The notes under the pieces were generated by a model. That model was given only the letters and a program-made list of their open reading frames with translations. It did no database searches and had not been told where the DNA came from. A stretch of DNA of 64,000 bases from Bacteroidia bacterium (GTDB taxonomy: Bacteria > Bacteroidota > Bacteroidia > JACCXN01): positions 928,009-992,008 of the forward strand of contig JBKBHS010000001.1 in assembly GCA_046299555.1 (NCBI GenBank), read 5' to 3'. The first letter of the stretch is position 1; each line of letters starts with the position of its first letter. Below are positions 16,495-35,175 of this stretch, piece by piece. The translations under genes were made by a program, and so were the position numbers.

Positions 16495-16579
16495 CAGCCC
16501 TCAAACAAAGAAATCAACAACGTTCATTTGAAAAGTTTGAGAATGAAAAATAAATAAATAAAATTTTTTTCATAAAAAG

Positions 16580-16610
16580 TTTGCAGATTTAAAAACTGTA
16601 TGTACCTTTG
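16580..16610 (+). promoter_or_regulatory. rRNA operon promoter P2
   Basis: TTTG -N19- TACCTTTG; part of a ~100-bp repeat unit (aaaagtttgcagatttaaaaa...tacctttgcagcccctta). Confidence 0.65.
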
Positions 16611-16679
16611 CAGCCCCTTAAAAATGAATGTAGAGAAATAGAGGTTTAAAAACGAAGAGAAAAATATTTTAAAAAAAAG

Positions 16680-16710
16680 TTTGCAGATTTAAAAAAGGTG
16701 TTTACCTTTG
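16680..16710 (+). promoter_or_regulatory. rRNA operon promoter P3
   Basis: TTTG -N19- TACCTTTG; near-identical repeat of P2. Confidence 0.65.
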
Positions 16711-16784
16711 CAGCCCCTTAAAAATGATTAAGGGATTAAAACTTGAAAAGTAAATCGAAACAAAAAATATTTTTTTAAAAAATA

Positions 16785-16815
16785 TTTGCAGATTTAAAAA
16801 AGGTGTTTACCTTTG
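16785..16815 (+). promoter_or_regulatory. rRNA operon promoter P4
   Basis: TTTG -N19- TACCTTTG; near-identical repeat of P2/P3. Confidence 0.65.
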
Positions 16816-16990
16816 CAGCCCCTTAAAAATGATTCCTTAAAAATGATTAAGGGTTTAAAAAGTAAATTAAAACATTTTATTATATTATTAAGTTCTTTGA
16901 AAGATTTTATTGAAGAGGTAAAGGTAGCGTAATTGAATGATCACACCCCGTGATCAATGAGCCAACTCCAAATATTTTAAAATTTTTTAC

Positions 16991-18512
<1,522 letters not shown>

Positions 18513-18643
18513 AGAGTATTTGCTCATAATTTCAATTACGTTCCTTCCTCCTTCAATAAATATCTAAAACTTTTCCCATTAAACGAGCTCAGTGATGGTT
18601 CGGCCATCAGGGCATAAGGAATTAGTCCCCATTGGGATTTTAA

Positions 18644-18717
18644 AGTCCCGTAGCTCAGTTGGTTAGAGCACTACACTGATAATGTAGGGGTCAGCAGTTC
18701 AAGTCTGCTCGGGACTA
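18644..18717 (+). tRNA. tRNA-Ile (GAT) in 16S-23S spacer
   Basis: Cloverleaf agtcccg.../...cgggact; anticodon loop ctGATaa; T-arm agcagttcaagtctgct. Confidence 0.9.
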
Positions 18718-18731
18718 CAGAAAATCGTTTT

Positions 18732-18805
18732 GGGGAATTAGCTCAGCTGGCTAGAGCACCTGCCTTGCACGCAGGGGGTCAACGGTTCGAATCCGTTATT
18801 CTCCA
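18732..18805 (+). tRNA. tRNA-Ala (TGC) in 16S-23S spacer
   Basis: ggggaattagctcagctggctagagc...; anticodon loop ttTGCac; G3:U70 wobble in acceptor stem. Confidence 0.9.
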
Positions 18806-18887
18806 CAATTAACCGCTCATATTTATATAGCGGAAAAGTTCTTTGACATGTTGAAAGAGAGTACTTCTCATTAATTTTAATAATTTT

Positions 18888-21775
<2,888 letters not shown>

Positions 21776-21844
21776 TACATACAAATTATTAAAATTTATG
21801 ATAGTACTTTCTTTCTTTATGTCATTATAAAATATTAAAGATTT

Positions 21845-21954
<110 letters not shown>

Positions 21955-21961
21955 TTTAATT

Positions 21962-22023: not shown

Positions 22024-23907
22024 ATGAGATTCTTTTTAAGTTTTATAATTATACCTTTTGTATTTCACTCTTTCTCTTTTGCATCTCATCAATTTTCTTT
22101 AAAAATTGTAAATATTAATTCTGACTCAGTCAAAGTTTCATATCCATTATATTATTCTTTTTATTTTTCTTTTTCTGACTCTACTAATTATAATATTTGG
22201 AATGATAGTTCTTTAACTTTTATACATCGTTATGCATTTCATAAATATGGTTTAGAATGGCATAATGGCAATATTGGGCTTTCTAGAAATTCAATATTTT
22301 ACACCTATACAAAACCTGATTTTGGTTTTCAAGTAGGATTAAATGGTTTTGAAAATTATTTTTTTTCTTCAGAACCATTTAAAATTTTTCAAACCAGAAG
22401 ACCATATACTGAAATTTCTGTTGTATTAGGTTCTAATAAAGAACAAATTGCACGTTTATTACATACTCAAAATGTTAATGAGCGCTGGAATATTGCTTTT
22501 AGAATGAATAGAACGACATCTGAAGGTTTTTATTCGAGACAAAATGCGAATTTTAATTCCATACAATTACAATCTAATTATACTTCGAGAAATAAAAGAT
22601 ATGCGGCTATTTTTCAATCCAATTTTAATCGAGCTAATGCTTTTGAAAATGGAGGAGTAATTGATTCTGTTGATGTGCTTAATTCGGAGGAATTTTTAAA
22701 TGCACGTGGTATTCCAATTAATTTAAACGATGCGCGCAGACGAACTTCTGAAAATTCTGTTTGGATTAAGCAGTATTTTAATATAATTCATAAAGATTCT
22801 GTTTTAACAAATGATTCATTGTTTGAACATCGTTATTTTGTTAAAGCCGGATTGTCCAATATATCAGGTGTTTCAGGAAGGTATAGTTGGTTTAAGGACG
22901 AGGAAGCTGCTTTAGGTTTTTATTCTAACTTCAGAGATTCTATAACAAATGATTCGATAAACAAATTTAGTTTATATGATGAATTTCGTGCGCATGTTTA
23001 TTTTAATGATTTTGAGTTAAATGGTGGTATAAAATATGAATGGAATAAACTTAGTATGATTAATTACGATACTTTAGCTCAAAATTTAATTACTGTAAGT
23101 AGTTTGAACTGGCAAAATAAAAAAGGTAGTAATTTAGGTATAGACGCAAATTATGTTATTGCCGGATTTAATAGAAATGACTTTCGATTAAGAGCTTTTT
23201 TAAATTATAAGTTTTCAGAAGAATGGTTCCTAAATATTAATTATTTATCAGATTACAGAACACCTACTTTGCAGAGTTTGCGATGGGTTTCCAATAATTT
23301 TGAATGGAATAATTCTTTTAAGAAGGAATTATACAATGGAGGTTCTGCTTATTTAATTAATACAGACAGAGAATTTAAAGTAGGTGGAGGAATTCATTAT
23401 TTAACAAATCCTGTTTTTTACGATTTTGTTGCCCGACCAAAGCAATCCGATGGTAGTTCACAAATTGTACAAGCTTTAGCTGAAAAAACTTTTCAGGTTG
23501 GCAAGTTTTATTTAACCAACACTTTTGCATATCAGAAATCTTCTGCTGACTCCATTTTCAGAGTGCCGGAAATTATTTCTAAAAATGCTTTTTTCTTTCA
23601 GACAGATTTATTTAAACGTGCTATGAGAATTCAGTTGGGTGTTGATTTCTATTACTTTACATCCTTTACTCCTTATGCTTATATGGCAGCAAGTAATGTG
23701 TATTATCTTCAAAATAATCGATTAAGTGGTAATTATCCTTTCTTTGATGTTTTTCTAAATTTTAAAGTTAAAACATTAAGAGGTTTTATTATGCTGGATC
23801 ATGCTAATCAGGGGTTAATTGGAAATAATCAATATTATTTTATGCCGGGATATCCTTTTCCGGGAAGAACTGTAAAGCTTGGTTTAACTTGGGTGTTTAA
23901 GGATTAG
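22024..23907 (+). CDS. hypothetical outer-membrane beta-barrel protein (putative porin-like)
   Basis: 627 aa; N-terminal hydrophobic signal; rich in Y/F/N/S alternating strands; C-terminal ...LGLTWVFKD. Confidence 0.55.
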   Translation: MRFFLSFIIIPFVFHSFSFASHQFSLKIVNINSDSVKVSYPLYYSFYFSFSDSTNYNIWNDSSLTFIHRYAFHKYGLEWHNGNIGLSRNSIFYTYTKPDFGFQVGLNGFENYFFSSEPFKIFQTRRPYTEISVVLGSNKEQIARLLHTQNVNERWNIAFRMNRTTSEGFYSRQNANFNSIQLQSNYTSRNKRYAAIFQSNFNRANAFENGGVIDSVDVLNSEEFLNARGIPINLNDARRRTSENSVWIKQYFNIIHKDSVLTNDSLFEHRYFVKAGLSNISGVSGRYSWFKDEEAALGFYSNFRDSITNDSINKFSLYDEFRAHVYFNDFELNGGIKYEWNKLSMINYDTLAQNLITVSSLNWQNKKGSNLGIDANYVIAGFNRNDFRLRAFLNYKFSEEWFLNINYLSDYRTPTLQSLRWVSNNFEWNNSFKKELYNGGSAYLINTDREFKVGGGIHYLTNPVFYDFVARPKQSDGSSQIVQALAEKTFQVGKFYLTNTFAYQKSSADSIFRVPEIISKNAFFFQTDLFKRAMRIQLGVDFYYFTSFTPYAYMAASNVYYLQNNRLSGNYPFFDVFLNFKVKTLRGFIMLDHANQGLIGNNQYYFMPGYPFPGRTVKLGLTWVFKD

Positions 23908-23914
23908 TCAAAAT

Positions 23915-23990
23915 TCATAAGTCGTAAGTTCTAAGTCGTAAGTCATAAGTTAGAGGACAGAAGTCAGAAGTCAGAAAACAGAAACAGGAA
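23915..23990. repeat. imperfect heptamer-like tandem repeats (taagtcg/a; agaagtc)
   Basis: cataagtcgtaagttctaagtcgtaagtcataagt... acagaagtcagaagtcagaaaacagaaacagg. Confidence 0.6.
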
Positions 23991-23991
23991 T

Positions 23992-25068
23992 TTATCTTTT
24001 TCGTTGATCTTTTAAAATTTGTTTGGCGGTAATTCTTATCACGGAATAAGCTGGAATCGCTATCAACATTCCCAATACTCCATAAATTGTTCCTGCGGCA
24101 ATAACTACTAAGAAAATTTCAAGTGGATGTGCTTTAATACTCCTCGAAAAAATTAGTGGCTGAAAAACAAAATTATCGAGCAATTGAGTTCCAAACATGA
24201 TGATATAAGTTTTTAAATAAATGTTTGCTAAAGAAAATTCAGGACTTAAATATGACGCTGTAACAATAAAAAATGCAAACACCATTCCCATTAGTGGACC
24301 TATATATGGAATAATATTTAAAATAGCGGAAATGGTTGCAATAAGTAATGCATTTTTTATTCCCATTGCGCTTAGCCCAATAAAATTGCAGGTAAAAATG
24401 CAAATTACCTGAATGAATAATCCTATAAAATAGCGACTAAGTGTTTCTTTGCAATTTTTAATAATGGTACTTACAGAGTGTTTTTCAGCATCGGGTATAA
24501 GTAAAAATATTTTTTCTTTTATCAGCTCTTTATCTTTTATCAAAAAGAACGATATAAATATGATAGAGAAAAGTGCAATAAAAATATTTCCTGTAAATAG
24601 CAATGTATTACTTAGGGTATCGGCAATGTTTTTTGGATTAAATATGCTTAAAATTTTTTCCTGAAAAAACTCTAATACATTTCTATGGTCGTTTGGATAT
24701 AGCGATTGAAATATTTTGTCCAGTTTGTCAATTAAATGATAGAAATTGTCTTTTAGTAAAGTAATGTCTATGTAACTTAATGAATTTATTTGTTGATTTA
24801 TTAATGGAATAAATGATAAAATTATCGCGCTAATTATAGCTAAAAAAAGTAATAAAATTAGCGTAGCACTTAATGCTCTGGGAATTTGAAGTGTACGTTT
24901 GGCAATAGTGATGTTATTAAGCTTGTTTATCAAAGGGTCACTTATAAGCATAATTACAACAGAAATAGCCACATACATGGTAATGCTGAAAAAATTATAA
25001 ACTATAGCAGTAGCTAAAGCAGCTGCTATTAACCAAAAATAAGATTGTATGGAATTTTTTTGATACAT
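23992..25068 (-). CDS. AI-2E family transporter (PerM/YdiK-like permease)
   Basis: 358 aa; eight or more TM helices; typical AI-2E topology and conserved C-terminal region. Confidence 0.75.
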   Translation of the reverse strand: MYQKNSIQSYFWLIAAALATAIVYNFFSITMYVAISVVIMLISDPLINKLNNITIAKRTLQIPRALSATLILLLFLAIISAIILSFIPLINQQINSLSYIDITLLKDNFYHLIDKLDKIFQSLYPNDHRNVLEFFQEKILSIFNPKNIADTLSNTLLFTGNIFIALFSIIFISFFLIKDKELIKEKIFLLIPDAEKHSVSTIIKNCKETLSRYFIGLFIQVICIFTCNFIGLSAMGIKNALLIATISAILNIIPYIGPLMGMVFAFFIVTASYLSPEFSLANIYLKTYIIMFGTQLLDNFVFQPLIFSRSIKAHPLEIFLVVIAAGTIYGVLGMLIAIPAYSVIRITAKQILKDQRKR

Positions 25069-25111
25069 AAATCAAAGGTAAGAATAGTTATTTTTGTATA
25101 AAAAAATAACC

Positions 25112-25777
25112 ATGTCTAAAACAGCTTTAATTGCGGGAGCCAGTGGCTTGGTGGGTTCGTATTGTTTAGAATATTTATTACAATCAAAAATACACGATAA
25201 AGTAATTTGTATTACCCGAAAAACCTTGCCTAATCAATCGCCATATTTGCAGCAGATAATAGCCGATGCCAACAATCTTGCTGAAACGTTAAGCGAACTA
25301 AAAGCTGATGATGTGTATTGTTGTATTGGTACCACTATTAACAAAGCGGGTACCCAGGAGGCGTTTAAACAAGTAGATTATACTTATGTGAAAGTGTTGG
25401 CCGAGCAATTAAAAAATAATGGTGCAACATCGTTTGCCGTTGTTTCTTCTATTGGTGCTGATGCAAAATCTTCTAACTTTTATTTGCGCATCAAAGGCGA
25501 AATGGAAAATGCCGTAAAAGCATGCAATTATACAAAAACTATTATTTTGCGACCATCCATGCTTTTAGGACCACGAAAAGAATTCAGGATGGGTGAGGCA
25601 ATAGGTAAAGTGTTTATGACTACTTTTTCATTTTTGTTTGTTGGCAAGCTTAAGCGTTACAAAGCCATTGAAGCCACTCAAGTAGCCAAAGCTTTAATAC
25701 ATTTTACGCAAGAAGATTTTAAAGGGCTAAAAGTTGTTGAGAATGAAGAGTTGTTAGAATTGAAAATTGTAAATTGA
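25112..25777 (+). CDS. NAD(P)H-binding oxidoreductase (atypical SDR/epimerase-like)
   Basis: N-terminal Rossmann motif LIAGASGLVGSY; ORF-track start at 25094 is a TTG, ATG at 25112 preferred. Confidence 0.7.
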   Translation: MSKTALIAGASGLVGSYCLEYLLQSKIHDKVICITRKTLPNQSPYLQQIIADANNLAETLSELKADDVYCCIGTTINKAGTQEAFKQVDYTYVKVLAEQLKNNGATSFAVVSSIGADAKSSNFYLRIKGEMENAVKACNYTKTIILRPSMLLGPRKEFRMGEAIGKVFMTTFSFLFVGKLKRYKAIEATQVAKALIHFTQEDFKGLKVVENEELLELKIVN

Positions 25778-25778
25778 A

Positions 25779-25968
25779 GATTACAAATTGCAGATTAGAA
25801 GATTAGAAGATTAGAAATTGAGATTGATAGAAACTAATTGAAATTAGTGGAGATTAATTGAAGAATTTCGTTAGAATGTATTAACGTTTTAACGTGTTAA
25901 AGTGTGAAAGTTGAAATGTATGGAAATTGGTTGAAACTTATTGAGATTTATTGTTTTGAATGTATACA
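25779..25968. repeat. dispersed intergenic repeat copy B1 ((agaagatt)n stutter + gagattgatagaaa/gattaattgaa + gtgttaaagt modules)
   Basis: ttgagattgatagaaactaattgaaattagtggagattaattgaag...gttagaatgtattaacg...gtgttaaagtg shared with copies A/C/D. Confidence 0.6.
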
Positions 25969-26204
25969 AATATCAAATCTTTCGAATAAAACGAATAATG
26001 AAATTTTTAATTCATAAATAATAAATAAATACACCTCGTCATTGTTCTTTTATCTTTTAGTTTGTCTTCTATTATCTGGCAACTGTAAACTGTTAACTGT
26101 CTTCTTTTATTAAACCACAGAGAACGCAAAGAATTACGCAGAGCGCCACAGAGAAATTTTTTTTATCACCCGTCCTTATTCTTTTTACTGATGGCATATT
26201 GCTT

Positions 26205-26346
26205 TAATTGCACATTGACTCATTTACACATTTATTAATAGCCAACTGCCAACTGCTAACTGCCCACTACCCACTAACGACTTACACCTGACTACTTATA
26301 CCTAAAAAACTAATGGCTAATGGCTTTTAACTAAATAACTAAAAAA
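26205..26346. repeat. dispersed intergenic repeat copy B2 (tcatttacacattta module + (gccaact)n stutter + ctaatggctaatggct...actaaataactaaaaaa module)
   Basis: 3' 40 bp nearly identical to 29427-29466; 5' module matches 1236-1256 and 29358-29380. Confidence 0.6.
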
Positions 26347-26463
26347 GCAACCTTTTTTTGCTAATACGTTGTATATGAGTAGAAAATTATTTTATTAAAT
26401 CGACCAATAGCTTTCTAAATTAGATTAAAACCTATAAAGTGCCACTAAAAACTTGTATTTCAA

Positions 26464-26494
26464 TTTGTTAAATTAATAAGATGTTATATATTTG
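26464..26494 (+). promoter_or_regulatory. promoter for the small secreted protein / T9SS cargo operon
   Basis: TTTG -N19- TATATTTG (Bacteroidetes -33/-7 consensus) ending ~23 bp before ATG at 26517. Confidence 0.5.
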
Positions 26495-26516
26495 TTAATT
26501 GAAAAATTTTAGATTC

Positions 26517-26804
26517 ATGAAAAAATATTTCTTAGTATTCGCATTGTTAATCATATCAGGAACTTTAGTTTTTGGACAAAGTAATTCTGATTGCGATTCA
26601 ACCAAATGGGCAAAAGAAGGAACATATCTTGTTAAAATAGTTGAAGGTACTGTAGAGTCTACTGATGTAAGGCCTAGGGAACTAACAAGTGATGAAAAGT
26701 GCTTTATAGAACAAAATAGACATCTTACAAATGATGTTATTTTTAGATTTGATTTATATACAGAAGTGATTATCTATTCAAAAAATAAAATCTCGGAGAA
26801 ATGA
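26517..26804 (+). CDS. small secreted hypothetical protein (95 aa), translationally coupled to downstream T9SS cargo gene
   Basis: ATG at 26517 gives MKKYFLVFALLIISGTLVFGQ signal peptide; stop overlaps next start (ATGA at 26801-26804). Confidence 0.55.
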   Translation: MKKYFLVFALLIISGTLVFGQSNSDCDSTKWAKEGTYLVKIVEGTVESTDVRPRELTSDEKCFIEQNRHLTNDVIFRFDLYTEVIIYSKNKISEK

Positions 26805-28336
26805 GAAAATTATATTTATTTACGTTTTTTACAATCTTGCTAGTTGGAAATACATATGCGCAGCCTGCAAATGATGCTTGTGCAAGTGCAACAGCATTAA
26901 CTGTTAATGGCTCTTTACTTTGTGGTCAAACAACAAATAATGCAACTACACAAACAGGAGAAGCTTGTGCAGCATCTGGAGGTGGAGTCACACCTAGAAC
27001 AGTATGGTACTCATTTACTGCAACAAGTTCTTCTATGATTTTAAATTACTTAAGAACGAATACGTCAAATTGTATAACACGATTAAGCATTTACGGACCA
27101 AATCCAACCTGTGTTCCCGGTGCCGGAGCTCAGTTATCAGGATTTGCCTGTATTGATGTATATACAGGAGATCCAGGAAAATATTTAACAATGTCTGGTT
27201 TAGTTGTTGGCGCCACTTATCTAATTCAAGTTAATGGGCAAGATTGTGGAGGTGGAAACGATAGATTTCATAATTTTTGTATAGGTGTTTATACTCCAAA
27301 TACAAATAATTCTGTATCTGCTCCATCTGTTATAACGGAATGTGGTACAACATATAATGGCTCAACACAAGGTGGGTATTCTCCCTCAGGAACTGGAGTG
27401 GGTTTTAGGAATTTAGACGGTAATAATAGTACTACTTGTCCTTCTTGTGCTACAGCAGGTGACGATGTTACTTTTGTTATAAATAACGATTCTTGGTTTT
27501 CATTTTGTACAGTTAATGCGGGTACTTGGCAAGTAACTTTTAGTGTTGGCACATGCGTATTCTCTGGAATAAATAGTGGTGCTCAAATGGCATTATTTAC
27601 TGGTAGCCCAACAGCGTTAACTTGGCATTCACAAGCTACAAATCCAACTTATGCAGGAGGATCGTGGACCTCTCCTACTATTACTTTAGCTGCTGGTGGA
27701 TGTGCATATATGGTTGTGGATGGATTTGCAGGTGATGCATGTACTTATTCTTATACAGTAACCAATCTTTCTGGTGGTTGTATTTTATTACCTATTGAAT
27801 TATTATCATTTAACTACACTAAAGAAGGAAACAATGTAAATATTCAATGGAAAACAGCCACAGAAACTAATAATGACTTCTTTACGTTAGAAAAATCAAG
27901 CGATGGAATTAATTATGAATTTTTCCAAAACATTAAAGGGGCAGGTAATTCTAATATGCCAATAGAGTATAAAACCAAAGATACTAATCCTTTTGAAGGT
28001 GTAACCTATTATCGCTTAAAACAAACGGATTATGATGGTAATTTTGAATATGTAGGAACAATTGCAGTTAAAACAAATAAAGCTGTTGAGAATATTGCAG
28101 TAATTCCCAACCCTGTTTTAAATAATGCAGAAATAAATTTCAATTCCAATTTAAATGGAGTTTCTCGCATTCAAATAATTGATATTACAGGTAAGCAAGT
28201 TTATACAGAAAGTATAAATACTAATGAAGGCCCAAACCGTTTTGTATTAAATACAGAAAATTATAATAAAGGGCTTTACTTCTTGGTTATCTCTAACGAA
28301 TTCGGTACTGAAAAATTAAAGTTTGTAAAAGAGTAA
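26801..28336 (+). CDS. secreted protein with two PPC-like domains and a T9SS type-A C-terminal sorting domain
   Basis: 511 aa; signal peptide; N-terminal domain resembles the PPC-like domains of the 1528-aa adhesin (ANDACASATAL...TVWYSFTA); C-terminal IAVIPNPVLNNAEINF...KGLYFLVISNEFGTEKLKFVKE Por secretion tail. Confidence 0.8.
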   Translation: MRKLYLFTFFTILLVGNTYAQPANDACASATALTVNGSLLCGQTTNNATTQTGEACAASGGGVTPRTVWYSFTATSSSMILNYLRTNTSNCITRLSIYGPNPTCVPGAGAQLSGFACIDVYTGDPGKYLTMSGLVVGATYLIQVNGQDCGGGNDRFHNFCIGVYTPNTNNSVSAPSVITECGTTYNGSTQGGYSPSGTGVGFRNLDGNNSTTCPSCATAGDDVTFVINNDSWFSFCTVNAGTWQVTFSVGTCVFSGINSGAQMALFTGSPTALTWHSQATNPTYAGGSWTSPTITLAAGGCAYMVVDGFAGDACTYSYTVTNLSGGCILLPIELLSFNYTKEGNNVNIQWKTATETNNDFFTLEKSSDGINYEFFQNIKGAGNSNMPIEYKTKDTNPFEGVTYYRLKQTDYDGNFEYVGTIAVKTNKAVENIAVIPNPVLNNAEINFNSNLNGVSRIQIIDITGKQVYTESINTNEGPNRFVLNTENYNKGLYFLVISNEFGTEKLKFVKE

Positions 28337-28357
28337 TCTGAGTAAATATTAAAAAAA

Positions 28358-28393
28358 TTAAGCCTGCCCTAGTGGTGGGCTTTTTTGTTTTTT
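28358..28393 (+). terminator. probable rho-independent terminator
   Basis: Weak stem aagcc...ggctt / gccc...gggc followed by ttttttgtttttt. Confidence 0.4.
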
Positions 28394-28469
28394 AGGAGTT
28401 AGGGAATAGGTGTTAGTAGTAAGTCTTAAGTTATTAGTCGCTAGGCATAAGGAGTAAGTGAAGTGGTTG

Positions 28470-28585
28470 GTGTGTGTTAAAGTTAGAACGTTAGAATGTG
28501 TTAATGTTTGAGATTAATAGAAACTCTTTGAGATTGATAGAAATTAGAGATTAATTGAAATTCTTAGAGATTGAAATAGGATATA
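28470..28585. repeat. dispersed intergenic repeat copy C
   Basis: gttagaatgtgttaatgtttgagattaatagaaactctttgagattgatagaaattagagattaattgaaattcttagagattgaaatagg; preceded by word-like stutter aggagttagggaataggtgttagtagtaagt... Confidence 0.6.
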
Positions 28586-28703
28586 TTTGTTTCAGATTAA
28601 AAGTAATTTTTTGACTTGTATTAGTAAAATAGAATTAATCCTGAATTTCAAGACAAGCAATGTTGGAATAGCTGGGGTTTTTGATGAATTCAATTATTTC
28701 TTC

Positions 28704-28979
28704 TTAGTGGGAAAGAATAATTTCTGCTAGCATGCTGGTTGATTTATTTCCTGTTCTTAGCCAAACTATTTTAGGGGGTATCCCATAAAGGTTAGATTAA
28801 TCGAAAAAATCCGCATCAAAGGTAACTATTGTGTAGTTATGATCTTTTGCAAATTTCCAAATCTGAATGTCTGTATTGTTCTCAATTCCAAGAGTTCTTA
28901 CTTGAGCAGCAAGTGGAAAATAATCCCTAATTTTTTCTACTATTCTAAAAGAAATATTTTGATCAAATAATAGTCTCAT
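28704..28979 (-). pseudogene. DUF5615 (PIN-like) toxin gene interrupted by in-frame TAA after codon 60
   Basis: 60-aa ORF MRLLFDQNISFRIVEKIRDY...TIVTFDADFFD stops at 28797-28799; same frame continues SNLYGIPPKIVWLRTGNKSTSMLAEIILSH to a stop at 28704-28706, matching the usual C-terminal half of DUF5615 proteins. Confidence 0.55.
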
Positions 28980-29203
28980 TAAGCTACTCGTAAACGGTTT
29001 TCACGGTCAGCAGCATAGGCTAAACAGGCTTGAATATCCTCTTCTGTAAGTTCCGGATAATCCAATAAGATTTCCTTTGTAGTCATTCCGGAAGCTAAAT
29101 AGCTTAAAATATCGTACTCTGAAATACGAGTATTTCTAATACATGGTTTTCCGAAGCGTTTTTCGGGGTTTATTTTAATTATAATAGAATAATCTTTCAT
29201 CAT
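28979..29203 (-). CDS. DUF433 domain protein (antitoxin-like partner of DUF5615)
   Basis: 74 aa; ...RFGKPCIRNTRISEYDILSYLASGMTTKEIL.DYPELTEEDIQACLAYA typical of DUF433; 1-nt overlap with downstream DUF5615 ORF. Confidence 0.75.
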   Translation of the reverse strand: MMKDYSIIIKINPEKRFGKPCIRNTRISEYDILSYLASGMTTKEILLDYPELTEEDIQACLAYAADRENRLRVA

Positions 29204-29289
29204 GTTGTATTGCCAAAATTTATCATTATTTAGCTAACTCAAATTTTAGCAAAAAAATATGAATGTTAAATTTTAAAGTAAATATTTAA

Positions 29290-29462
29290 AGCGTTTGAAT
29301 TAATAATAGAGACTAATTGAAACTCATAGCGATTGATAGAAATTAAAGATTAATTGTGATTCATTTACATATTTACACATTTTCACATTCTCAAATTGGC
29401 AAATCATCAAATTCTCAAATCAATATAACTAATGGCTAATGGCTTATTACTAAATAACTAAA
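29290..29462. repeat. dispersed intergenic repeat copy D (all three modules contiguous)
   Basis: gagactaattgaaactcatagcgattgatagaaattaaagattaattgtgattcatttacatatttacacatttt + caaattctcaaat stutter + aactaatggctaatggcttattactaaataactaaaaaaa. Confidence 0.65.
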
Positions 29463-29481
29463 AAAATCACTACCTTTCCCT

Positions 29482-30858
29482 GTGCAAAAAAATGATCCTA
29501 AAATTATTCGCGCATGGGCTATGTACGACTGGGCAAACTCAGTGTATCCGCTCGTAATTACTTCTACTATTTTTCCCATTTATTATACCGCTGTTACCAC
29601 ACATCAGGGTTCTGATATGGTGCAGTTTTTAGGAATGAATTTTAAGAATACCGCACTATATACCTATGCCATGGCATTTGCTTATTTATTGATTGCAGCT
29701 GTTGCTCCATTGCTTTCAGGTATTGCCGACTATGGCGGTAAGAAAAAAGGATTTATGATGTTTTTCTGCTATGTTGGTGCTATAGCTTGTTCTGCAATGG
29801 CTTTATTTACAGGACCTGAAAATTTATGGATAGGAATATTAACCATTGTTTTGGCTTGTATAGGATATTCGGGAAGTATTGTATTTTACAATGCCTATTT
29901 GCCGGAAATAGCTACACCCGATATGCAAGATAGAGTAAGTGCCAAAGGCTATTCACTGGGTTATATAGGAGGAGCAATTCTTTTAATTTTAAATTTAGTA
30001 TTGATATTAATGCCCGATTTATTTTATGATGTAGCAGGAAGAATAAACGAATTAAAGCTTGTTGAAACAACTCTTACAGATGATGAAGCCCGTGAAAAAG
30101 TGCTTTCATCTTTATCGGGTATATCCTCGCGCATTTCATTTTTTACTACCGGCATTTGGTGGATTTTATTTGCGCATTACAGTTTTTACTATTTGCCCAA
30201 AAATGTATTTAATCGCAAGCCAGAAGGAAATATATTGTTTAAAGGTTATCTGGAATTGATAAAAGTGTGGCAGGAGTTAAAATCAAACCCTACTTTAAAA
30301 AAATATCTGAGTGCATTTTTTAGCTATAATATGGGCGTGCAAACAGTAATGCTGGTAGCTACACTTTTTGGCAGTAAAGAATTGCAATTGGAATCAGGCG
30401 AATTAATAATGACCATATTAATTATTCAGTTTGTAGCTATAGGCGGTGCTTATTTGTTTTCGGGTTTATCGGGCAAATATGGCAATATTTACATTTTACG
30501 CGTTGCTACCTTGCTGTGGATAGGTATTTGTTTTATGGCCTACTTTGTTACATCAGCAGTGCAGTTTTATGTTTTAGCATTTTTTGTAGGATTGGTAATG
30601 GGAGGCATACAATCTTTATCGCGCTCTACCTATTCTAAACTTTTGCCCGAAACTATTGACCATGCCTCTTATTTTAGTTTTTATGATATTTGCGAAAAAT
30701 TGGGAATAGTGCTTGGAATGGGGCTTTTTGGAATTATAGAAGAAGTATCAGACAGTATGCGAAATTCTGTGATAGCTTTATTTCTGTTTTTCCTGATAGG
30801 TTTCTTACTTTTGTTGCGGATAAATAATAAATTGACCATCCAACAATCAAAACACTAA
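29482..30858 (+). CDS. MFS transporter, UMF1/Atg22-like family
   Basis: 458 aa; 12 predicted TM helices; N-terminal AWAMYDWANSVY motif typical of UMF1 family; start codon GTG at 29482 (alternative ATG at Met14). Confidence 0.7.
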   Translation: MQKNDPKIIRAWAMYDWANSVYPLVITSTIFPIYYTAVTTHQGSDMVQFLGMNFKNTALYTYAMAFAYLLIAAVAPLLSGIADYGGKKKGFMMFFCYVGAIACSAMALFTGPENLWIGILTIVLACIGYSGSIVFYNAYLPEIATPDMQDRVSAKGYSLGYIGGAILLILNLVLILMPDLFYDVAGRINELKLVETTLTDDEAREKVLSSLSGISSRISFFTTGIWWILFAHYSFYYLPKNVFNRKPEGNILFKGYLELIKVWQELKSNPTLKKYLSAFFSYNMGVQTVMLVATLFGSKELQLESGELIMTILIIQFVAIGGAYLFSGLSGKYGNIYILRVATLLWIGICFMAYFVTSAVQFYVLAFFVGLVMGGIQSLSRSTYSKLLPETIDHASYFSFYDICEKLGIVLGMGLFGIIEEVSDSMRNSVIALFLFFLIGFLLLLRINNKLTIQQSKH

Positions 30859-30861
30859 TTA

Positions 30862-31584
30862 ATGGTAGTAGATATTTTTATTCCCTGTTTTGTAGATCAG
30901 ATATATCCGCAAACGGGGATGAATATGGTAAAAATACTGGAGCACATAGGTTGTGGCGTAAATTATAATATAGAGCAAACCTGTTGTGGACAGCCTGCGT
31001 TTAATGCAGGTTTTTGGGATCACTGCAAAGAAATTGGAGAAAAGTTTATACGCGAATTTCCTGAAAATCGTCCTATCGTAATGCCTTCTGCTTCCTGTGC
31101 CGGCTTCGTAAAAAATGGCTATCCGGAAATGTTTCATAACTCTGTTTTGCATAATGAGTACAAGCAGGTTCGTAAAAATATTTATGAGTTTACCGATTTT
31201 TTGGTAAATGTTTTAAAGATTACCGATTTAGGAGCAAAGCTCGAAGGTAAAGCAACCTTTCATGATTCCTGTTCAGGATTACGAGAGTATGGAATAAAGC
31301 GCGAACCAAGGGTATTACTTGAAAAAGTAAAAGGGCTTGAATTTATTGAAATGAATGATTGCGAAACTTGTTGTGGTTTTGGAGGCATGTTTTCAGTAAA
31401 GTTTGAACCTATTGCAGTAGCTATGGCAGAACAGAAAGTTGAAAATGCCTTGGCAACAGGAGCAGAATATTTAATATCTACCGATTTGTCGTGTTTGATG
31501 CACATGGATGGCTATATTAAAAAGAAAAAATTACCTATAAAATGCATGCATATTATTGATGTGCTTGTAACCGGAGTTGAATAA
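30862..31584 (+). CDS. (Fe-S)-binding cysteine-rich (CCG) domain protein, LutA-like
   Basis: 240 aa; two CCG-type motifs (TCCGQPAFNAGF; CETCCGFGGMFSV); size and N-terminus (DIFIPCFVDQ) as in LutA. Confidence 0.7.
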   Translation: MVVDIFIPCFVDQIYPQTGMNMVKILEHIGCGVNYNIEQTCCGQPAFNAGFWDHCKEIGEKFIREFPENRPIVMPSASCAGFVKNGYPEMFHNSVLHNEYKQVRKNIYEFTDFLVNVLKITDLGAKLEGKATFHDSCSGLREYGIKREPRVLLEKVKGLEFIEMNDCETCCGFGGMFSVKFEPIAVAMAEQKVENALATGAEYLISTDLSCLMHMDGYIKKKKLPIKCMHIIDVLVTGVE

Positions 31585-32461
31585 TAAAAATAAAATTATG
31601 GAATTAATGTTAAAAGAAAATGCGCTGAAAGGCAAAACCATTTTAGTTACCGGAGGAGGTACAGGCCTTGGCAGATCAATGTCAGAAGCGTTTTTAAAGT
31701 TGGGTGCCAATATAGTTATATGCAGTAGAAAGCAAGATATAATTGAAAAAGCAGCCGCTGATATGATGCAGCAATATGGAGGCGAAGTATTAGGATTACC
31801 TTGTGATGTGCGAAAATATGATGAGGTAGAAAAAGTTATTGAAGCTGCATATGCAAAATTTGGCGGTATTGATGTGTTGGTAAACAATGCAGCAGGGAAT
31901 TTTATTAGCCCTACAGAACGCTTGAGCCACAAAGCTTTTGATGTAATTGTGGATATTGTTTTAAAAGGAAGTTATAACTGCACATTGGCACTTGGCAAAA
32001 AATGGATTGCAGAAAAAAGAAAAGCCAACGTATTAAGCATCGTTACTACCTATTCGTGGACAGGTTCCGGTTATGTAGTTCCATCAGCTTGCGCTAAAGC
32101 AGGTGTGTTGGCGCTTACACGCTCATTAGCTGCTGAATGGGGAAAATACGGCATTCGCTTAAATGCCATTGCTCCGGGTCCATTTCCTACAGAGGGGGCT
32201 TTTAGTCGTTTGTTTCCTGAGGCAGCAACCAAATTAATGGATCCTAAAAAACGAATTCCATTGCAGCGCTATGGCGAACATCATGAGTTAGCAAATTTGG
32301 CTTGTTACTTAGTGTCTGATTTTGCAGCCTATATAAATGGAGAAGTTGTAACTATTGATGGTGGCGAATGGTTGCATGGTGCCGGAGAGTTCAATGCCTT
32401 TGATGCTGTACCGCAAGAAATGTGGGATATTATTGAAAAACAAGTGAGGGGGAAGGGTTAA
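31577..32461 (+). CDS. SDR family oxidoreductase, 2,4-dienoyl-CoA reductase-like
   Basis: TGGGTGLG Rossmann motif, NNAAGNF, YxxxK (SACAKAG); likely true start ATG at 31598 (MELMLKE). Confidence 0.75.
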   Translation: MNNKNKIMELMLKENALKGKTILVTGGGTGLGRSMSEAFLKLGANIVICSRKQDIIEKAAADMMQQYGGEVLGLPCDVRKYDEVEKVIEAAYAKFGGIDVLVNNAAGNFISPTERLSHKAFDVIVDIVLKGSYNCTLALGKKWIAEKRKANVLSIVTTYSWTGSGYVVPSACAKAGVLALTRSLAAEWGKYGIRLNAIAPGPFPTEGAFSRLFPEAATKLMDPKKRIPLQRYGEHHELANLACYLVSDFAAYINGEVVTIDGGEWLHGAGEFNAFDAVPQEMWDIIEKQVRGKG

Positions 32462-32575
32462 TTAGCTAATTTGATGATGTGGTAATTTGATAATTTGATA
32501 ATGTGATAATAGAACAATCAGTATCTATTAGTTTCAATCTATTTCAATAAATCTCAACGTTTAAACATTAATACT
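32462..32575. repeat. dispersed intergenic repeat copy E (inverted orientation) with (gataatt)n stutter
   Basis: Reverse complement of caatcagtatctattagtttcaatctatttcaataaatctcaac = gttgagatttattgaaatagattgaaactaatagatactgattg resembles the gagatt/gattgaaa units of copies A-D. Confidence 0.5.
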
Positions 32576-32595
32576 TTCAAACTAGTCAACTAAGA

Positions 32596-33924
32596 ATGCT
32601 CGCAGAATTTCTTCGCTTTGTAAAGTTGCAGCAGCTTTTTAAACAAGGCGAACCTTTGCTGGTAGCTGTTAGCGGAGGTAAAGATTCTGTTTGTCTGGCG
32701 CATTTACTTTCATTAGCTGAATTTAATTTTTCGATAGCACATTGCAATTTTAAATTAAGAGGAAAGGAAAGCGATGAAGATGCTTATTTTGTTAAGCAAT
32801 TTGCAAAAGAGTTGGGAGTAGATTTTTATCAGAAAGATTTTGATACTGCAAATTATGCCGATGAGAAAAAAATAAGTATTCAGGAAGCTGCGCGTGAATT
32901 ACGATATGCATGGTTCAGAGAATTGAAAAAGCAAAAGGGATTTTCAAAAATTCTTACAGCACATCATCAGGATGATTCGGTTGAAACATTTTTTATTAAT
33001 CTTTTTCGCTCCAGCGGAATTTCGGGACTTACAGGTATTTCAGCAATATCTGAAGATATAGTACGACCTTTATTGTTTGCTTCGCGTAATGAAATAGACA
33101 AACATATCCAAACCTTTAATCTTGCATACCGTGAAGATAGCAGCAATGCCAGCGATGCCTATTTGCGAAATAAAATTCGCCATACGATTATTCCCCGAAT
33201 TCAAGACTTAGATAATCGTTCTTACAAAGGATTATTGCAGAGTATAGAATTTTTAAAAAGCGACTATACGCTTTTTCAATATTTGATTAACAATGAAACA
33301 GAACATTTAATTAAAAAAGATGCTGATAAAATAATAATTGATTTGCCTTTGTTAAAGCAGCATGCAATGGCAGAAGCATTGCTTTTTCAAATATTAAAAC
33401 CTTTTGGATTTCATAAGAATGAAATAATTAAGGTATTGAATTGCGAAGAAAGTGGCAAATTGTTTTATACTACATCACACAGAGCCTTAATTAATAGAAA
33501 TGAATTCATCATTTCTAAAAGAACAGAAAACGATGTTTTAACATCGACATTTATTGAAGAGGATGAAACAGAAATTTTCTATCCTATAAAATTGCGGTTT
33601 GAAAAACTTGAGAAAAAACAAGTTGAATTTTCAGCAGATAAAAATACAGTTTATTTAGATGCTGATAAATTAAAATGGCCGCTAGAATTACGCAAGTGGC
33701 AAGCGGGAGATTGTTTTGTGCCCCTTGGTATGAAAGGAAGAAAAAAAGTGAGCGATTTTTTAATTGATGAAAAAGTATCGTTGATGGATAAAGAAAGTAC
33801 TTTTGTGCTTTTATCTACTAATGAAATCGTATGTTTAATAGGGCATCGTATTAGCAATCATTATAAAATTACTGAAGACACAATAAACATACTAAAGCTT
33901 GAATTAATTCCCGAAAATATTTAG
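32596..33924 (+). CDS. tilS: tRNA(Ile)-lysidine synthetase
   Basis: 442 aa; PP-loop SGGKDS at N-terminus; TilS-like C-terminal domain. Confidence 0.85.
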   Translation: MLAEFLRFVKLQQLFKQGEPLLVAVSGGKDSVCLAHLLSLAEFNFSIAHCNFKLRGKESDEDAYFVKQFAKELGVDFYQKDFDTANYADEKKISIQEAARELRYAWFRELKKQKGFSKILTAHHQDDSVETFFINLFRSSGISGLTGISAISEDIVRPLLFASRNEIDKHIQTFNLAYREDSSNASDAYLRNKIRHTIIPRIQDLDNRSYKGLLQSIEFLKSDYTLFQYLINNETEHLIKKDADKIIIDLPLLKQHAMAEALLFQILKPFGFHKNEIIKVLNCEESGKLFYTTSHRALINRNEFIISKRTENDVLTSTFIEEDETEIFYPIKLRFEKLEKKQVEFSADKNTVYLDADKLKWPLELRKWQAGDCFVPLGMKGRKKVSDFLIDEKVSLMDKESTFVLLSTNEIVCLIGHRISNHYKITEDTINILKLELIPENI

Positions 33925-33945
33925 TTTAGCTTAAAACATTCTCTT

Positions 33946-35175
33946 TTGGTACTCAATTATATCTGGATAGCATTTTTCATTATTGCATTTGTAGTGGCAA
34001 GTGTAAAGTTGTTTTTTATGGGTGATATGGAAGTTTTTCCGGAGCTTATGAAAACAACATTTGAAACTTCTAAAACAGCCTTTGAAATTTCATTAGGATT
34101 AACAGGCGTCTTAACACTTTGGATGGGGATTATGAAAATTGGCGAAAATGCAGGAATGATAAATTTTTTGGCCCGAATTACCAATCCATTTTTAAGTCGT
34201 TTGTTTCCATCCATTCCTAAAGGCCATCCTGTAATGGGGCAAATGATGATGAATTTTTCAGCTAACATGTTGGGCTTAGATAATGCAGCTACACCAATGG
34301 GTTTAAAAGCAATGACAAGCCTACAAGAATTAAATCCGGATAAAGAGAAAGCTTCGGATGCTCAAATAATGTTTTTAGTTTTAAATACTTCCGGATTAAC
34401 CATTATTCCGGTTAGTGTAATGGTATATAGAGCACAATTAGGTGCAGCTAATCCTGCTGATGTTTTTTTGCCTATTCTGTTAGCTACATTTTTTTCTACC
34501 ATTGCAGGAATAATTACTGTTTCTATTTTTCAAAAAATTAATTTACTAAACAAATGGCTTATTGGAGGCATTGCAGGAGCAAGCTCTTTAATAGCTTTGT
34601 TTATGTATTGGCTAAATACCTTATCGCAAGAGCAAATTAATACAGTTTCTTCGGTAGGTAGTAGCTTTATATTGTTTGGAATTATCATTTCATTTATTTC
34701 CATAGCCTTTTACAAAAAGATAAACGTATATGATGCATTTATTGAAGGTGCAAAAGATGGTTTTGGTGTGGCAATAAAAATTATTCCTTATCTGGTTGCC
34801 TTTTTAGTTGCAATAGCAGTTTTTCGTACATCAGGAGCGCTTACATACATAACTGATGCTATTGCAGTTTTATTTCAATGGTTAAACATTAATACGGACT
34901 TTATTCCGGCCTTACCTACTGCCATTATGAAACCTTTAAGTGGGAGCGGAGCAAGAGGAATGATGTTAGATACTATGAATGCCTATGGTGTAGATTCATT
35001 TGCCGGTAGGTTAGCTTGCATAATGCAAGGTGCTACAGATACTACTTTTTATATTTTGGCGGTTTATTTTGGTTCAGTAAATATTAGAAATACGCGTTAT
35101 GCAGCAGGAGCAGGTATTTTGGCAGATATAGCCGGAATTATTGCAGCCATTTTTATAGCCTATATATTTTTTTAA
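33946..35175 (+). CDS. nucleoside-recognition (Gate) domain membrane protein, SpmA/SpmB-like fusion
   Basis: 409 aa polytopic membrane protein with duplicated Gate-like regions. Confidence 0.6.
   Translation: MVLNYIWIAFFIIAFVVASVKLFFMGDMEVFPELMKTTFETSKTAFEISLGLTGVLTLWMGIMKIGENAGMINFLARITNPFLSRLFPSIPKGHPVMGQMMMNFSANMLGLDNAATPMGLKAMTSLQELNPDKEKASDAQIMFLVLNTSGLTIIPVSVMVYRAQLGAANPADVFLPILLATFFSTIAGIITVSIFQKINLLNKWLIGGIAGASSLIALFMYWLNTLSQEQINTVSSVGSSFILFGIIISFISIAFYKKINVYDAFIEGAKDGFGVAIKIIPYLVAFLVAIAVFRTSGALTYITDAIAVLFQWLNINTDFIPALPTAIMKPLSGSGARGMMLDTMNAYGVDSFAGRLACIMQGATDTTFYILAVYFGSVNIRNTRYAAGAGILADIAGIIAAIFIAYIFF

What the first reader, a model, noticed from the sequence alone, without database searches (positions are those of the whole stretch)
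28704..28979. PIN-like DUF5615 toxin inactivated by a single in-frame TAA, while the DUF433 partner is intact
The 60-aa ORF ends FDADFFD-TAA. The same frame continues SNLYGIPPKIVWLRTGNKSTSMLAEIILSH, which looks like the normal C-terminal half of DUF5615 proteins (hydrophobic-I/V-W-L-R motif). This is therefore a nonsense-mutated toxin gene next to an intact 74-aa DUF433 antitoxin-like gene. It could be a recently inactivated toxin-antitoxin module, or a case of stop-codon readthrough or recoding.
Basis: partly seen in the sequence, partly recalled or inferred. Interest (0 to 1): 0.55.

Follow-up and report, generated by a model that had tools for sequence, protein, structure and literature searches.

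The report
Dead toxin gene beside surviving antitoxin
A small toxin-antitoxin gene pair in an uncultured Bacteroidia genome has lost its toxin to two premature stop codons, not one, while the antitoxin reading frame stays open; this is a common, already described way for such selfish modules to decay.

Summary
On the minus strand, a 74-codon DUF433 antitoxin gene (28979-29203) overlaps by one base the start of a DUF5615 (COG4634, PIN-like) toxin gene. The toxin frame runs 114 codons to its natural TAA (28635-28637). It holds two in-frame TAA codons: codon 61 (28797-28799) and codon 92 (28704-28706).

All 120 closest homologues are 111-119 aa, and none stops at either position. Both stops are one base change from common family residues. 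The DNA is identical in assemblies of at least nine sequencing runs and in an NCBI MAG, so this is not a sequencing error. TAA is the genome's main true stop codon, and no relative shares these stops, so recoding is very unlikely.

No decay is detectable beyond the two stops, so the inactivation looks recent. The antitoxin frame is open but carries Glu at a site that is Val in 119 of 119 homologues.

Toxin-first erosion is common in this family: 51 of 80 DUF433 loci surveyed keep an intact partner. The pair sits in a variable region. One relative holds an unrelated MNT/HepT pair at the same site, and another lacks the whole 4.3-kb segment.

Verdict: an ordinary eroding toxin-antitoxin module, of low interest.

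The parts
28979..29203 (-). DUF433 (COG2442) antitoxin gene: 74 codons plus TAA. Homologues and the NCBI record start at the second ATG (73 aa). The reading frame is open.
   Evidence: ORF list. Pfam PF04255 at 1.3e-25, 89.4 bits. 100% identical to NCBI MFN4233951.1. Nearest other homologues are 82-84% identical.
29117..29119 (-). Antitoxin codon 29, GAG (Glu), at a position that is Val in all close homologues. It is one T-to-A step from GTG.
   Evidence: Val in 119 of 119 homologues. Val in all 17 antitoxins beside disrupted toxins. Val at the aligned position of PDB 2GA1. Codon read.
28635..28979 (-). DUF5615 (COG4634, Mut7-C-like PIN) toxin pseudogene. Full extent is 114 codons plus the natural TAA. 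Its start ATG overlaps the antitoxin stop (TAATG).
   Evidence: Translation. Pfam PF18480 positions 1-107 of 110, 1.1e-32. Alignment to 113-114-aa homologues. AlphaFold2 model of the stop-bridged sequence, pLDDT 94.5.
28797..28799 (-). Premature TAA number 1 at codon 61. The family residue here is Leu 81, Ile 30, Met 8, Phe 1 of 120, so TTA to TAA is a single step.
28704..28706 (-). Premature TAA number 2 at codon 92, a variable position (Asn, Ser, Lys and others). One step from AAA, TCA or CAA.
28635..28637 (-). Natural stop codon (TAA) of the toxin gene, at the position where homologues end (...CLEIxx).
28443..28575 (+). Left flank of the cassette: an array of short motifs (GTTARAGT-type units, then three or four GAGATTRATWGAAA units of 17-20 nt period). 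It contains the 63-nt direct repeat 28501-28563.
   Evidence: Homologous to the left flank of the MNT/HepT cassette in L179.
29300..29397 (+). Right flank of the cassette: the second copy of the 63-nt direct repeat (29300-29362, 83% identical to 28501-28563), followed by CATTTACA-type units.
   Evidence: Aligns with the L179 right flank.
25085..29371 (.). A 4.29-kb variable segment that is absent from a related genome (L175). It holds an epimerase-like gene, a 101-aa ORF, a 511-aa T9SS-tail protein gene and the toxin-antitoxin pair.
   Evidence: blastn of L175 against the window: 22920-25084 and 29372-34542 align at 85-89% and nothing aligns in between.

Best explanation
This is a chromosomal type II toxin-antitoxin module of the PIN-COG2442 (VapBC-like) kind, caught in the act of eroding. 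It has a DUF433 DNA-binding antitoxin upstream and a DUF5615/COG4634 PIN-like putative nuclease toxin downstream.

The toxin gene has taken two single-base nonsense substitutions. Codon 61 most likely changed from TTA (Leu) to TAA. Codon 92 changed from AAA, TCA or CAA to TAA.

Translation coupled to the antitoxin now ends after 60 residues. The product keeps the first two strands and the FDADF motif. It lacks the strand at 71-75 (PPKIVWLR), two helices and the last strand (CLEI), so it cannot form the alpha/beta core. This loss of activity is inferred, not shown. There is no in-frame start before Met83, and the second stop blocks any rescue.

The pair is an accessory cassette in a variable region, so nothing in the host needs the toxin. 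Losing it is neutral or advantageous. The antitoxin frame persists because the event is recent, or because an antitoxin alone is harmless and may still act as a regulator or anti-addiction factor. Its unique V29E change suggests it may be drifting as well.

Shown: the gene anatomy, the family membership, the two stops, their reality in the assemblies, their absence from homologues, and the accessory location. Inferred: the toxicity of the ancestral protein, the loss of function, the order of the mutations and the selective forces.
For: Two in-frame TAA codons lie within a frame that matches PF18480 over positions 1-107 of 110.

The 120 best homologues are 111-119 aa long, and none ends at codon 60 or 91.

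The nearest antitoxin relatives have uninterrupted toxins: 116 aa in L013, and open to the contig end at 91 aa in L014.

The DNA is 100% identical in contigs assembled from at least nine SRA runs and in the NCBI MAG.

Of the toxin positions conserved in at least 90% of homologues, 45 of 46 are kept, and the one change is I72V, which occurs in the family.

The segments downstream of the stops are no more diverged than the family norm. The ratio of downstream to upstream identity is 0.80, against 0.83 +/- 0.06 for homologues.

The gap between antitoxin identity and toxin identity is typical: 0.145 here, against 0.157 +/- 0.067 among intact pairs.

The AlphaFold2 model (pLDDT 94.5) places strands at 71-75 and 109-113 and helices at 81-90 and 94-100, all after the first stop.

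The family-wide survey shows the same pattern. Of 80 DUF433 loci in species-representative genomes, 51 have an intact DUF5615 partner, 17 a disrupted one, about 9 none or only a remnant, and 3 cannot be judged. The antitoxin frame is open in 16 of the 17 disrupted cases.

In 80 toxin-selected metagenome loci, 4 toxins are broken beside open antitoxins, and only 1 antitoxin is broken beside an open toxin.

The location is accessory. The segment is absent in L175, and the same site holds an MNT/HepT pair in L179.

The literature agrees. In Photorhabdus, toxin-only pseudogenisation (185 copies) far outnumbers antitoxin-only loss (8), and modules are acquired repeatedly at the same site (PMC13617665). 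Orphan antitoxins are abundant in Klebsiella (PMC7192599). A PIN-COG2442 pair, VapBC10, has been validated as a toxin-antitoxin system (PMC3834315).
Against: No close orthologue with an intact toxin was found. The best toxin match is 69% identical, so the ancestral codons are inferred from family consensus and the age of the event is only loosely bounded.

The tests for decay have low power against about 30% background divergence. A neutral model gives P of about 0.1-0.2 for seeing so little damage before a second nonsense hit (my calculation from the 4.0% nonsense fraction). Continued constraint on the downstream frame is therefore not formally excluded.

No DUF5615 protein of this subfamily was shown here or in the papers read to be toxic.

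All supporting assemblies are clonal (100% identical over 10 kb). They exclude error but add no evolutionary depth.
Confidence: 0.9

Rival explanations
1. Programmed stop-codon readthrough or recoding. The two TAA codons would be decoded at some frequency, giving low, regulated amounts of full-length toxin.
For: All family-conserved residues downstream of both stops are preserved, and there is no frameshift. A simple neutral model is only weakly compatible with this (P about 0.1-0.2, my calculation).
Against: TAA terminates 27 of 37 long frames in the window, and it ends both the antitoxin gene and the toxin gene itself. None of the 120 homologous proteins, 69 genome loci or 80 metagenome loci has a stop at codon 61 or 92; their stops fall at other codons. 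Two independent readthrough events would be needed. From general knowledge, TAA is read by both release factors and is the least leaky stop in bacteria. No RNA family match or structure was found near the stops.
Confidence: 0.02
2. Sequencing or assembly artefact: the real gene is intact.
For: The source is a metagenome-assembled genome, a data type in which consensus errors occur.
Against: The identical sequence, including both TAA codons, occurs in contigs assembled separately from at least nine SRA runs (16 contigs on record) and in the NCBI record. Both lesions are substitutions, not the homopolymer indels typical of assembly error.
Confidence: 0.01
3. The 60-residue N-terminal fragment is itself functional, for example as a decoy that binds the antitoxin or as a regulatory mini-protein, and is maintained as such. 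NCBI annotates it as a protein.
For: The stub is still translationally coupled to the antitoxin, and it scores 73 bits against PF18480. NCBI lists it as MFN4233950.1. Two other loci (L016, L068) also end near residue 57.
Against: No natural family member among the 120 best hits is that short. The fragment lacks two of the core strands in the model. The truncations in other loci occur at scattered positions and by different lesions, as expected for decay rather than a conserved short form. The intact-looking downstream frame argues that the truncation is too recent to have been selected as a new gene.
Confidence: 0.04
4. Adaptive rather than neutral loss (a variant of the best explanation, not exclusive of it). 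The antitoxin was first weakened by V29E, or the toxin was costly, so toxin knock-outs were selected. The open antitoxin is then kept as an anti-addiction or immunity gene, or as a transcription factor.
For: V29E is unique at an invariant site. There are two nonsense hits with no other visible damage. Antitoxins beside broken toxins score no worse against the family profile than those beside intact toxins (Mann-Whitney p = 0.85). The site is one where toxin-antitoxin cassettes come and go. The anti-addiction idea is discussed in PMC7192599.
Against: All of this is equally expected if the disruptions are simply recent. No paralogous DUF5615 toxin occurs in the window for the antitoxin to neutralise. 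The order of the mutations is unknown.
Confidence: 0.25

Closest known systems
VapBC10 (ssr2962/slr1767) of Synechocystis PCC 6803, the experimentally validated PIN-COG2442 toxin-antitoxin pair (PMC3834315)
   Same: It is a two-gene operon with a COG2442/DUF433 antitoxin upstream of a PIN-type toxin. There, the antitoxin binds its own promoter and neutralises the toxin by forming a complex.
   Different: The toxin here cannot be made full-length. Whether slr1767 belongs to the same PIN subgroup (COG4634/DUF5615) was not tested. No experiment exists for this locus.
COG4634 / Pfam DUF5615 (PF18480), in the Mut7-C-like group of the PIN-like superfamily (PMC5499597)
   Same: The stop-bridged translation matches the Pfam model nearly end to end. 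It keeps all residues that are invariant in close homologues. Like that group, it has no detectable solved structural relative.
   Different: It is interrupted by two nonsense codons. The family's toxicity is described only as 'potential' in that classification.
VapBC45 (Rv2018/Rv2019) of Mycobacterium tuberculosis: a DUF433-containing antitoxin with a PIN_10 toxin (PMC2701414, PMC5499597)
   Same: A DUF433 domain antitoxin is paired with a Mut7-C-like PIN toxin.
   Different: The antitoxin here is a stand-alone 73-74-aa DUF433 protein without the extra winged-helix fusion. The toxin belongs to the COG4634 cluster, not PIN_10.
Eroded chromosomal toxin-antitoxin systems and orphan antitoxins (Photorhabdus, PMC13617665; Klebsiella, PMC7192599)
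   Same: The toxin is pseudogenised while the antitoxin stays open. The module lies in a high-turnover spot, and different modules occupy the same site in relatives (compared).
   Different: The phylum is different (Bacteroidota) and so is the toxin-antitoxin family. Here the cassette is bracketed by lineage-specific short-motif arrays, not by recognisable transposase or integrase genes in the sequence available.

Membership tests
DUF5615 / COG4634 PIN-like toxin (PF18480) | The sequence matches the Pfam model above its gathering score over most of the model. | tested here: met
   112.6 bits against a cut-off of 23.8, model positions 1-107 of 110, for the stop-bridged translation. The 60-aa stub scores 73.4 bits.
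DUF5615 / COG4634 PIN-like toxin (PF18480) | An uninterrupted reading frame of about 110-119 codons. | tested here: not met
   Two in-frame TAA codons at positions 61 and 92. Homologues are 111-119 aa. The locus is a pseudogene of the family, not a working member.
DUF5615 / COG4634 PIN-like toxin (PF18480) | The family-invariant residues are kept, including the acidic residues of the putative active site (D6, D37, D55, D57 and others). | tested here: met
   All 33 columns invariant across 24 homologues are kept. 45 of 46 positions conserved in at least 90% of 120 homologues are kept.
DUF5615 / COG4634 PIN-like toxin (PF18480) | A PIN-like fold and nuclease activity. | tested here: inconclusive
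DUF433 / COG2442 antitoxin (PF04255) | The sequence matches the Pfam model above its gathering score, as a ~70-80-aa stand-alone protein. | tested here: met
   89.4 bits against a cut-off of 23.6, model positions 1-56 of 56. The alignment profile hits PDB 2GA1 at 4.8e-09.
DUF433 / COG2442 antitoxin (PF04255) | The invariant core residues are kept. | tested here: inconclusive
   37 of 40 positions conserved in at least 90% of homologues are kept. V29E sits at a site that is Val in 119 of 119 homologues and in 2GA1. Its functional effect is unknown.
Type II toxin-antitoxin module of the PIN-COG2442 (VapBC-like) kind | An adjacent, co-oriented two-gene arrangement with the antitoxin first and overlapping or abutting reading frames. 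| tested here: met
   The antitoxin stop and the toxin start overlap (TAATG at 28979). The same arrangement is seen in the homologous loci surveyed: 69 of 80 genome loci and about 75 of 80 metagenome loci.
Type II toxin-antitoxin module of the PIN-COG2442 (VapBC-like) kind | The toxin inhibits growth and is neutralised by the cognate antitoxin. | not testable with these tools
   This needs a kill-rescue assay. It has been shown only for VapBC10 of Synechocystis (PMC3834315).
Programmed stop-codon readthrough or recoding | The in-frame stop is conserved at the same position in orthologues or homologues. | tested here: not met
   No stop at codon 61 or 92 in 120 proteins, 69 genome loci or 80 metagenome loci. 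Stops elsewhere are scattered, at codons 19, 25, 26, 39 and 96.
Programmed stop-codon readthrough or recoding | The stop codon concerned is reassigned or leaky in this genome. | tested here: not met
   TAA ends 27 of 37 stop-to-stop frames of at least 200 codons, and it ends both genes of this module. Actual readthrough levels were not measured.

The most novel reading that the evidence does not exclude
The intergenic site upstream of the MFS gene may be a cassette-exchange hotspot, in which lineage-specific arrays of about 20-nt motifs (GAGATTRATWGAAA...) serve as the recombination substrates that bracket and swap toxin-antitoxin pairs. The window holds DUF433/DUF5615, L179 holds MNT/HepT in the opposite orientation, and L175 is empty. 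On this reading, knocking out the toxin twice turns an addictive cassette into an antitoxin-only immunity gene that is then kept. That would be an integrase-independent, repeat-mediated way of capturing toxin-antitoxin cassettes in Bacteroidota.
Probability: 0.1. Interest if true: 0.5.

Novelty: new member of a known kind. Interest (0 to 1): 0.17.

Why it matters
The practical value is mostly in annotation. The public record lists the 60-aa stub as a 'DUF5615 family PIN-like protein', when it is the first third of a pseudogene with two nonsense codons.

Biologically, the locus adds a clean Bacteroidota example to the known pattern that chromosomal toxin-antitoxin modules erode toxin first. The survey made here gives a rough rate for this family: about one third of DUF433 genes in species-representative genomes lack an intact DUF5615 partner.

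The one lead that might repay more work is the cassette-like setting. Two unrelated toxin-antitoxin pairs occupy the same site in related genomes, and both are bracketed by the same lineage-specific motif arrays.

Tried and rejected
- **Exact look-up of the 73-aa NCBI antitoxin (P0121).** It is not on record in the contig index. The 74-aa form worked.
- **Source genome in the genome collection.** It is not there; the best antitoxin match in the scan was 78%. No intact orthologous allele was found: the best toxin match among the protein database searched was 69%. The ancestral codons are therefore inferred from family consensus.
- **Tests for excess divergence.** I tried segment identities, the gap between antitoxin and toxin identity, and hits at conserved sites. 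All were negative, but their power is low.
- **Flanking 63-nt direct repeats as the ends of a mobile element carried with the cassette.** Rejected. The motif occurs in other intergenic regions of the window. Among 179 loci it occurs only in this strain and its relative L179, and in none of the other toxin-antitoxin loci. It is a host-lineage repeat.
- **The match of the first stop's surroundings to that motif (28794-28806).** Judged a coincidence. About 1.9 such one-mismatch matches are expected by chance in the window.
- **Promoter, terminator and RNA scans.** The sigma-70-type promoter scan found no more sites than shuffled sequence, and it is the wrong model for Bacteroidota. No Rfam family is present in the region.
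- **Reinitiation after the first stop.** Excluded. The next in-frame start is Met83, nine codons before the second stop.

Full report
**Anatomy**

Both genes lie on the minus strand. A 74-codon ORF (28979-29203) matches Pfam DUF433 (PF04255) at 89.4 bits. Its stop overlaps the ATG of the next ORF (TAATG at 28979). That next ORF (28797-28979) encodes 60 residues ending FDADFFD-TAA and matches the first 60 positions of DUF5615 (PF18480) at 73.4 bits.

Reading the same frame onward gives SNLYGIPPKIVWLRTGNKSTSMLAEIILSH, then a second TAA (28704-28706), then EEIIEFIKNPSYSNIACLEIQD, then a third TAA (28635-28637). With both internal stops bridged, the 114-residue translation matches PF18480 over model positions 1-107 of 110 at 112.6 bits.

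The stop it took for the natural end is in fact a second premature stop, and the gene extends 69 bp further.

**Comparison with homologues**

A search of 5.8 billion protein clusters found 1045 relatives. The best 120 are 111-119 aa long (113 aa in 90 of them, 114 aa in 23), are at most 69% identical, and align end to end.

- Codon 61 corresponds to Leu in 81, Ile in 30, Met in 8 and Phe in 1 of the 120. TTA to TAA is therefore the obvious one-step origin.
- Codon 92 is a variable position (Asn 31, Ser 28, Lys 27 and others). It is one step from AAA, TCA or CAA.
- No homologue ends at either position.
- The antitoxin's nearest relatives (82-84% identical) sit next to uninterrupted toxins: 116 aa in L013, and open through residue 91 at the contig end in L014.

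**Is it real?**

The exact 60-aa and 74-aa products are on record on 16 and 12 contigs respectively. The contigs retrieved come from nine different SRA runs. All are 100% identical to the window over up to 10 kb, including both TAA codons. The same proteins are in an NCBI Bacteroidia MAG with a 1.70-Mb contig. There the 60-aa stub is annotated as a protein (MFN4233950.1), not as a pseudogene.

This excludes sequencing error. Because the assemblies are clonal, they carry no evolutionary information.

**Recoding?**

The window has 33.8% G+C. TAA ends 27 of 37 stop-to-stop frames of at least 200 codons, and it ends both the antitoxin gene and the toxin gene itself.

None of the 120 proteins, the 69 toxin-bearing genome loci or the 80 metagenome loci has a stop at codon 61 or 92. 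In-frame stops in other loci fall at codons 19, 25, 26, 39 and 96. No Rfam family lies near the stops. A full-length product would need two TAA readthroughs. After the first stop, the next in-frame start is Met83, nine codons before the second stop. I put recoding at about 2%.

**How old is the lesion?**

Beyond the two stops I can detect no decay.

- 45 of 46 toxin positions conserved in at least 90% of homologues are kept. The one change, I72V, occurs in the family.
- The ratio of downstream to upstream identity is 0.80, against 0.83 +/- 0.06 for family members.
- The antitoxin-minus-toxin identity gap is 0.145, against 0.157 +/- 0.067 among intact pairs.
- Only 4.0% of possible single-base changes in this gene create a stop. 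From that figure I calculate that, under pure drift after a first stop, the chance of so little conserved-site damage before a second stop is roughly 0.1-0.2. That is unremarkable.

The lesion therefore looks recent, but these tests are weak against a 30% background divergence. The order of the two mutations is unknown.

**What is lost**

An AlphaFold2 model of the stop-bridged protein is confident (pLDDT 94.5). It has strands at 2-5, 49-53, 71-75 and 109-113, and helices at 13-17, 37-46, 56-59, 81-90 and 94-100. The 60-residue product therefore lacks two of the four long strands and the two C-terminal helices. I infer that it cannot fold into the nuclease core.

The model has no significant Foldseek match in the PDB. 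This fits the published statement that the Mut7-C-like group containing COG4634 has no solved structure (PMC5499597).

**The antitoxin**

The antitoxin frame is open and scores well against its family profile. It has Glu (GAG, 29117-29119) where 119 of 119 close homologues, all 17 antitoxins beside disrupted toxins, and the distant solved structure 2GA1 have Val.

Three deviations at highly conserved sites put it at the upper edge of the family range; 11 of 119 members have as many. It may be starting to drift. Alternatively, a weakened antitoxin may have favoured loss of the toxin. I cannot tell which.

**How common is this?**

I fetched 80 loci from species-representative genomes chosen only by similarity to the antitoxin, then scored the downstream DNA with a toxin profile in all frames.

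| Partner state | Loci |
|---|---|
| Intact DUF5615 partner | 51 |
| Disrupted partner | 17 |
| No partner, or only a short remnant | about 9 |
| Undeterminable (contig end) | 3 |

- The 17 disrupted partners include three pure nonsense cases, one of them in the isolate Belliella aquatica. The rest are frameshifts, truncations and an internal deletion.
- The remnants include, for example, MRLLFDQNI... in L042 and ...YKELACIEIDN in L018.
- The antitoxin frame is open in 16 of the 17 disrupted cases.
- Antitoxin profile scores do not differ from those beside intact toxins (Mann-Whitney p = 0.85).

In the converse sample of 80 metagenome loci chosen by similarity to the toxin, four toxins are still broken beside open antitoxins. 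Only one antitoxin (L145, a frameshift) is broken beside an open toxin. Assembly errors in MAGs may inflate the frameshift counts.

This asymmetry is what toxin-antitoxin biology predicts. It matches published counts in Photorhabdus: toxin-only pseudogenes 185, antitoxin-only 8 (PMC13617665). It also fits the abundance of orphan antitoxins in Klebsiella (PMC7192599).

**Genomic setting**

Relatives were found through the neighbouring MFS transporter gene, at 84-95% protein identity.

- **L175** (85-89% nucleotide identity) aligns to window 22920-25084 and 29372-34542. It lacks the 4.29 kb in between, which in the window holds an epimerase-like gene, a T9SS-tail protein gene and the toxin-antitoxin pair.
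- **L179** (about 87% identity) has at the same place, just upstream of the MFS gene, an unrelated pair in the opposite orientation: a nucleotidyltransferase (MNT) gene and a HepT-like gene.

Both cassettes are bracketed by homologous arrays of short motifs. In the window, a 63-nt stretch of GAGATTRATWGAAA units is repeated directly on both sides at 83% identity (28501-28563 and 29300-29362).

The motif also occurs in other intergenic regions of the window. Among 179 fetched loci it occurs only in this strain and L179. It is therefore a repeat family of the host lineage, not part of a travelling toxin-antitoxin element.

The module is thus an accessory cassette at a high-turnover site. This again agrees with the published picture of repeated toxin-antitoxin acquisition at the same location.

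**Comparison with known systems**

The locus works like, or rather used to work like, a PIN-COG2442 VapBC-type module. That type was predicted by Makarova and colleagues (PMC2701414) and validated for VapBC10 of Synechocystis (PMC3834315). By sequence it belongs to DUF433 and DUF5615/COG4634. It fails the requirement of an uninterrupted toxin frame, so it is a pseudogene member. Toxicity and neutralisation could not be tested.

**Verdict**

This is a genuine, well-supported, ordinary case of toxin-first erosion of a chromosomal toxin-antitoxin module. The public annotation should mark the toxin as a pseudogene. Interest is low. The only lead with some novelty is the repeat-bracketed cassette exchange at this site.

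Noticed in passing
window 1143-1262, 23906-23987, 25732-25953, 26211-26343, 28443-28575, 29300-29444, 32459-32510: Many intergenic regions are built from concatenated micro-arrays of short motifs: AATGTGTT, GAGATTRATWGAAA with a 17-20 nt period, CATTTACA, AGTCATA, CTAATGG. The 13-mer AGATTRATWGAAA occurs 5 times exactly against 0.03 expected. Among 179 fetched loci it is found only in this strain and the related L179. No Rfam family matches. Its function is unknown.
   Followed up: partly
L179 247-892, compared with window 28576-29299: In a related genome (about 87% nucleotide identity in the flanks), the same site upstream of the MFS gene holds an unrelated MNT (NTP_transf_2) / HepT-like pair in the opposite orientation, between homologous motif arrays. 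This looks like a cassette replacement at a hotspot.
   Followed up: partly
window 25085-29371, compared with L175 2151-2444: A 4.29-kb segment (epimerase-like gene, 101-aa ORF, 511-aa Por_Secre_tail protein gene, toxin-antitoxin pair) is absent from a relative that is otherwise collinear at 85-89% identity. The relative has 294 bp of unrelated sequence there.
   Followed up: partly
window 28794-28806 (+): The plus-strand sequence around the first premature stop, AGATTAATCGAAA, is a one-mismatch match to the intergenic motif AGATTRATWGAAA, and the inferred TTA-to-TAA change improves the match. About 1.9 such matches are expected by chance in the window, so I treat it as a coincidence.
   Followed up: partly
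window 28797-28979 (-); NCBI MFN4233950.1: The public MAG annotation lists the 60-aa stub as a 'DUF5615 family PIN-like protein' rather than flagging a pseudogene with internal stops.
   Followed up: yes
L026 (Belliella aquatica) about 3339-3341, and L105 about 1615-1617: Two unrelated DUF5615 genes both carry an in-frame TAA at codon 39, where many of the aligned homologues have Gln (DxQIW) (GACAAATAAATTTGG and GACAGATAAATTTGG). This is probably independent CAA-to-TAA change at a codon one step from a stop.
   Followed up: no
window 12025-12894 (inside the 1528-aa ORF 10705-15291, minus strand): A 258-bp tandem repeat of about 3.4 copies at about 71% identity lies inside a very large ORF. It presumably encodes repeated protein domains.
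   Followed up: no
window 16546-16882, upstream of the rRNA operon 16989-21955: An A/T-rich 105-bp tandem repeat (3.2 copies, 72% matches) lies directly upstream of the 16S rRNA gene. It could be reiterated rRNA promoter or UP-element-like units.
   Followed up: no
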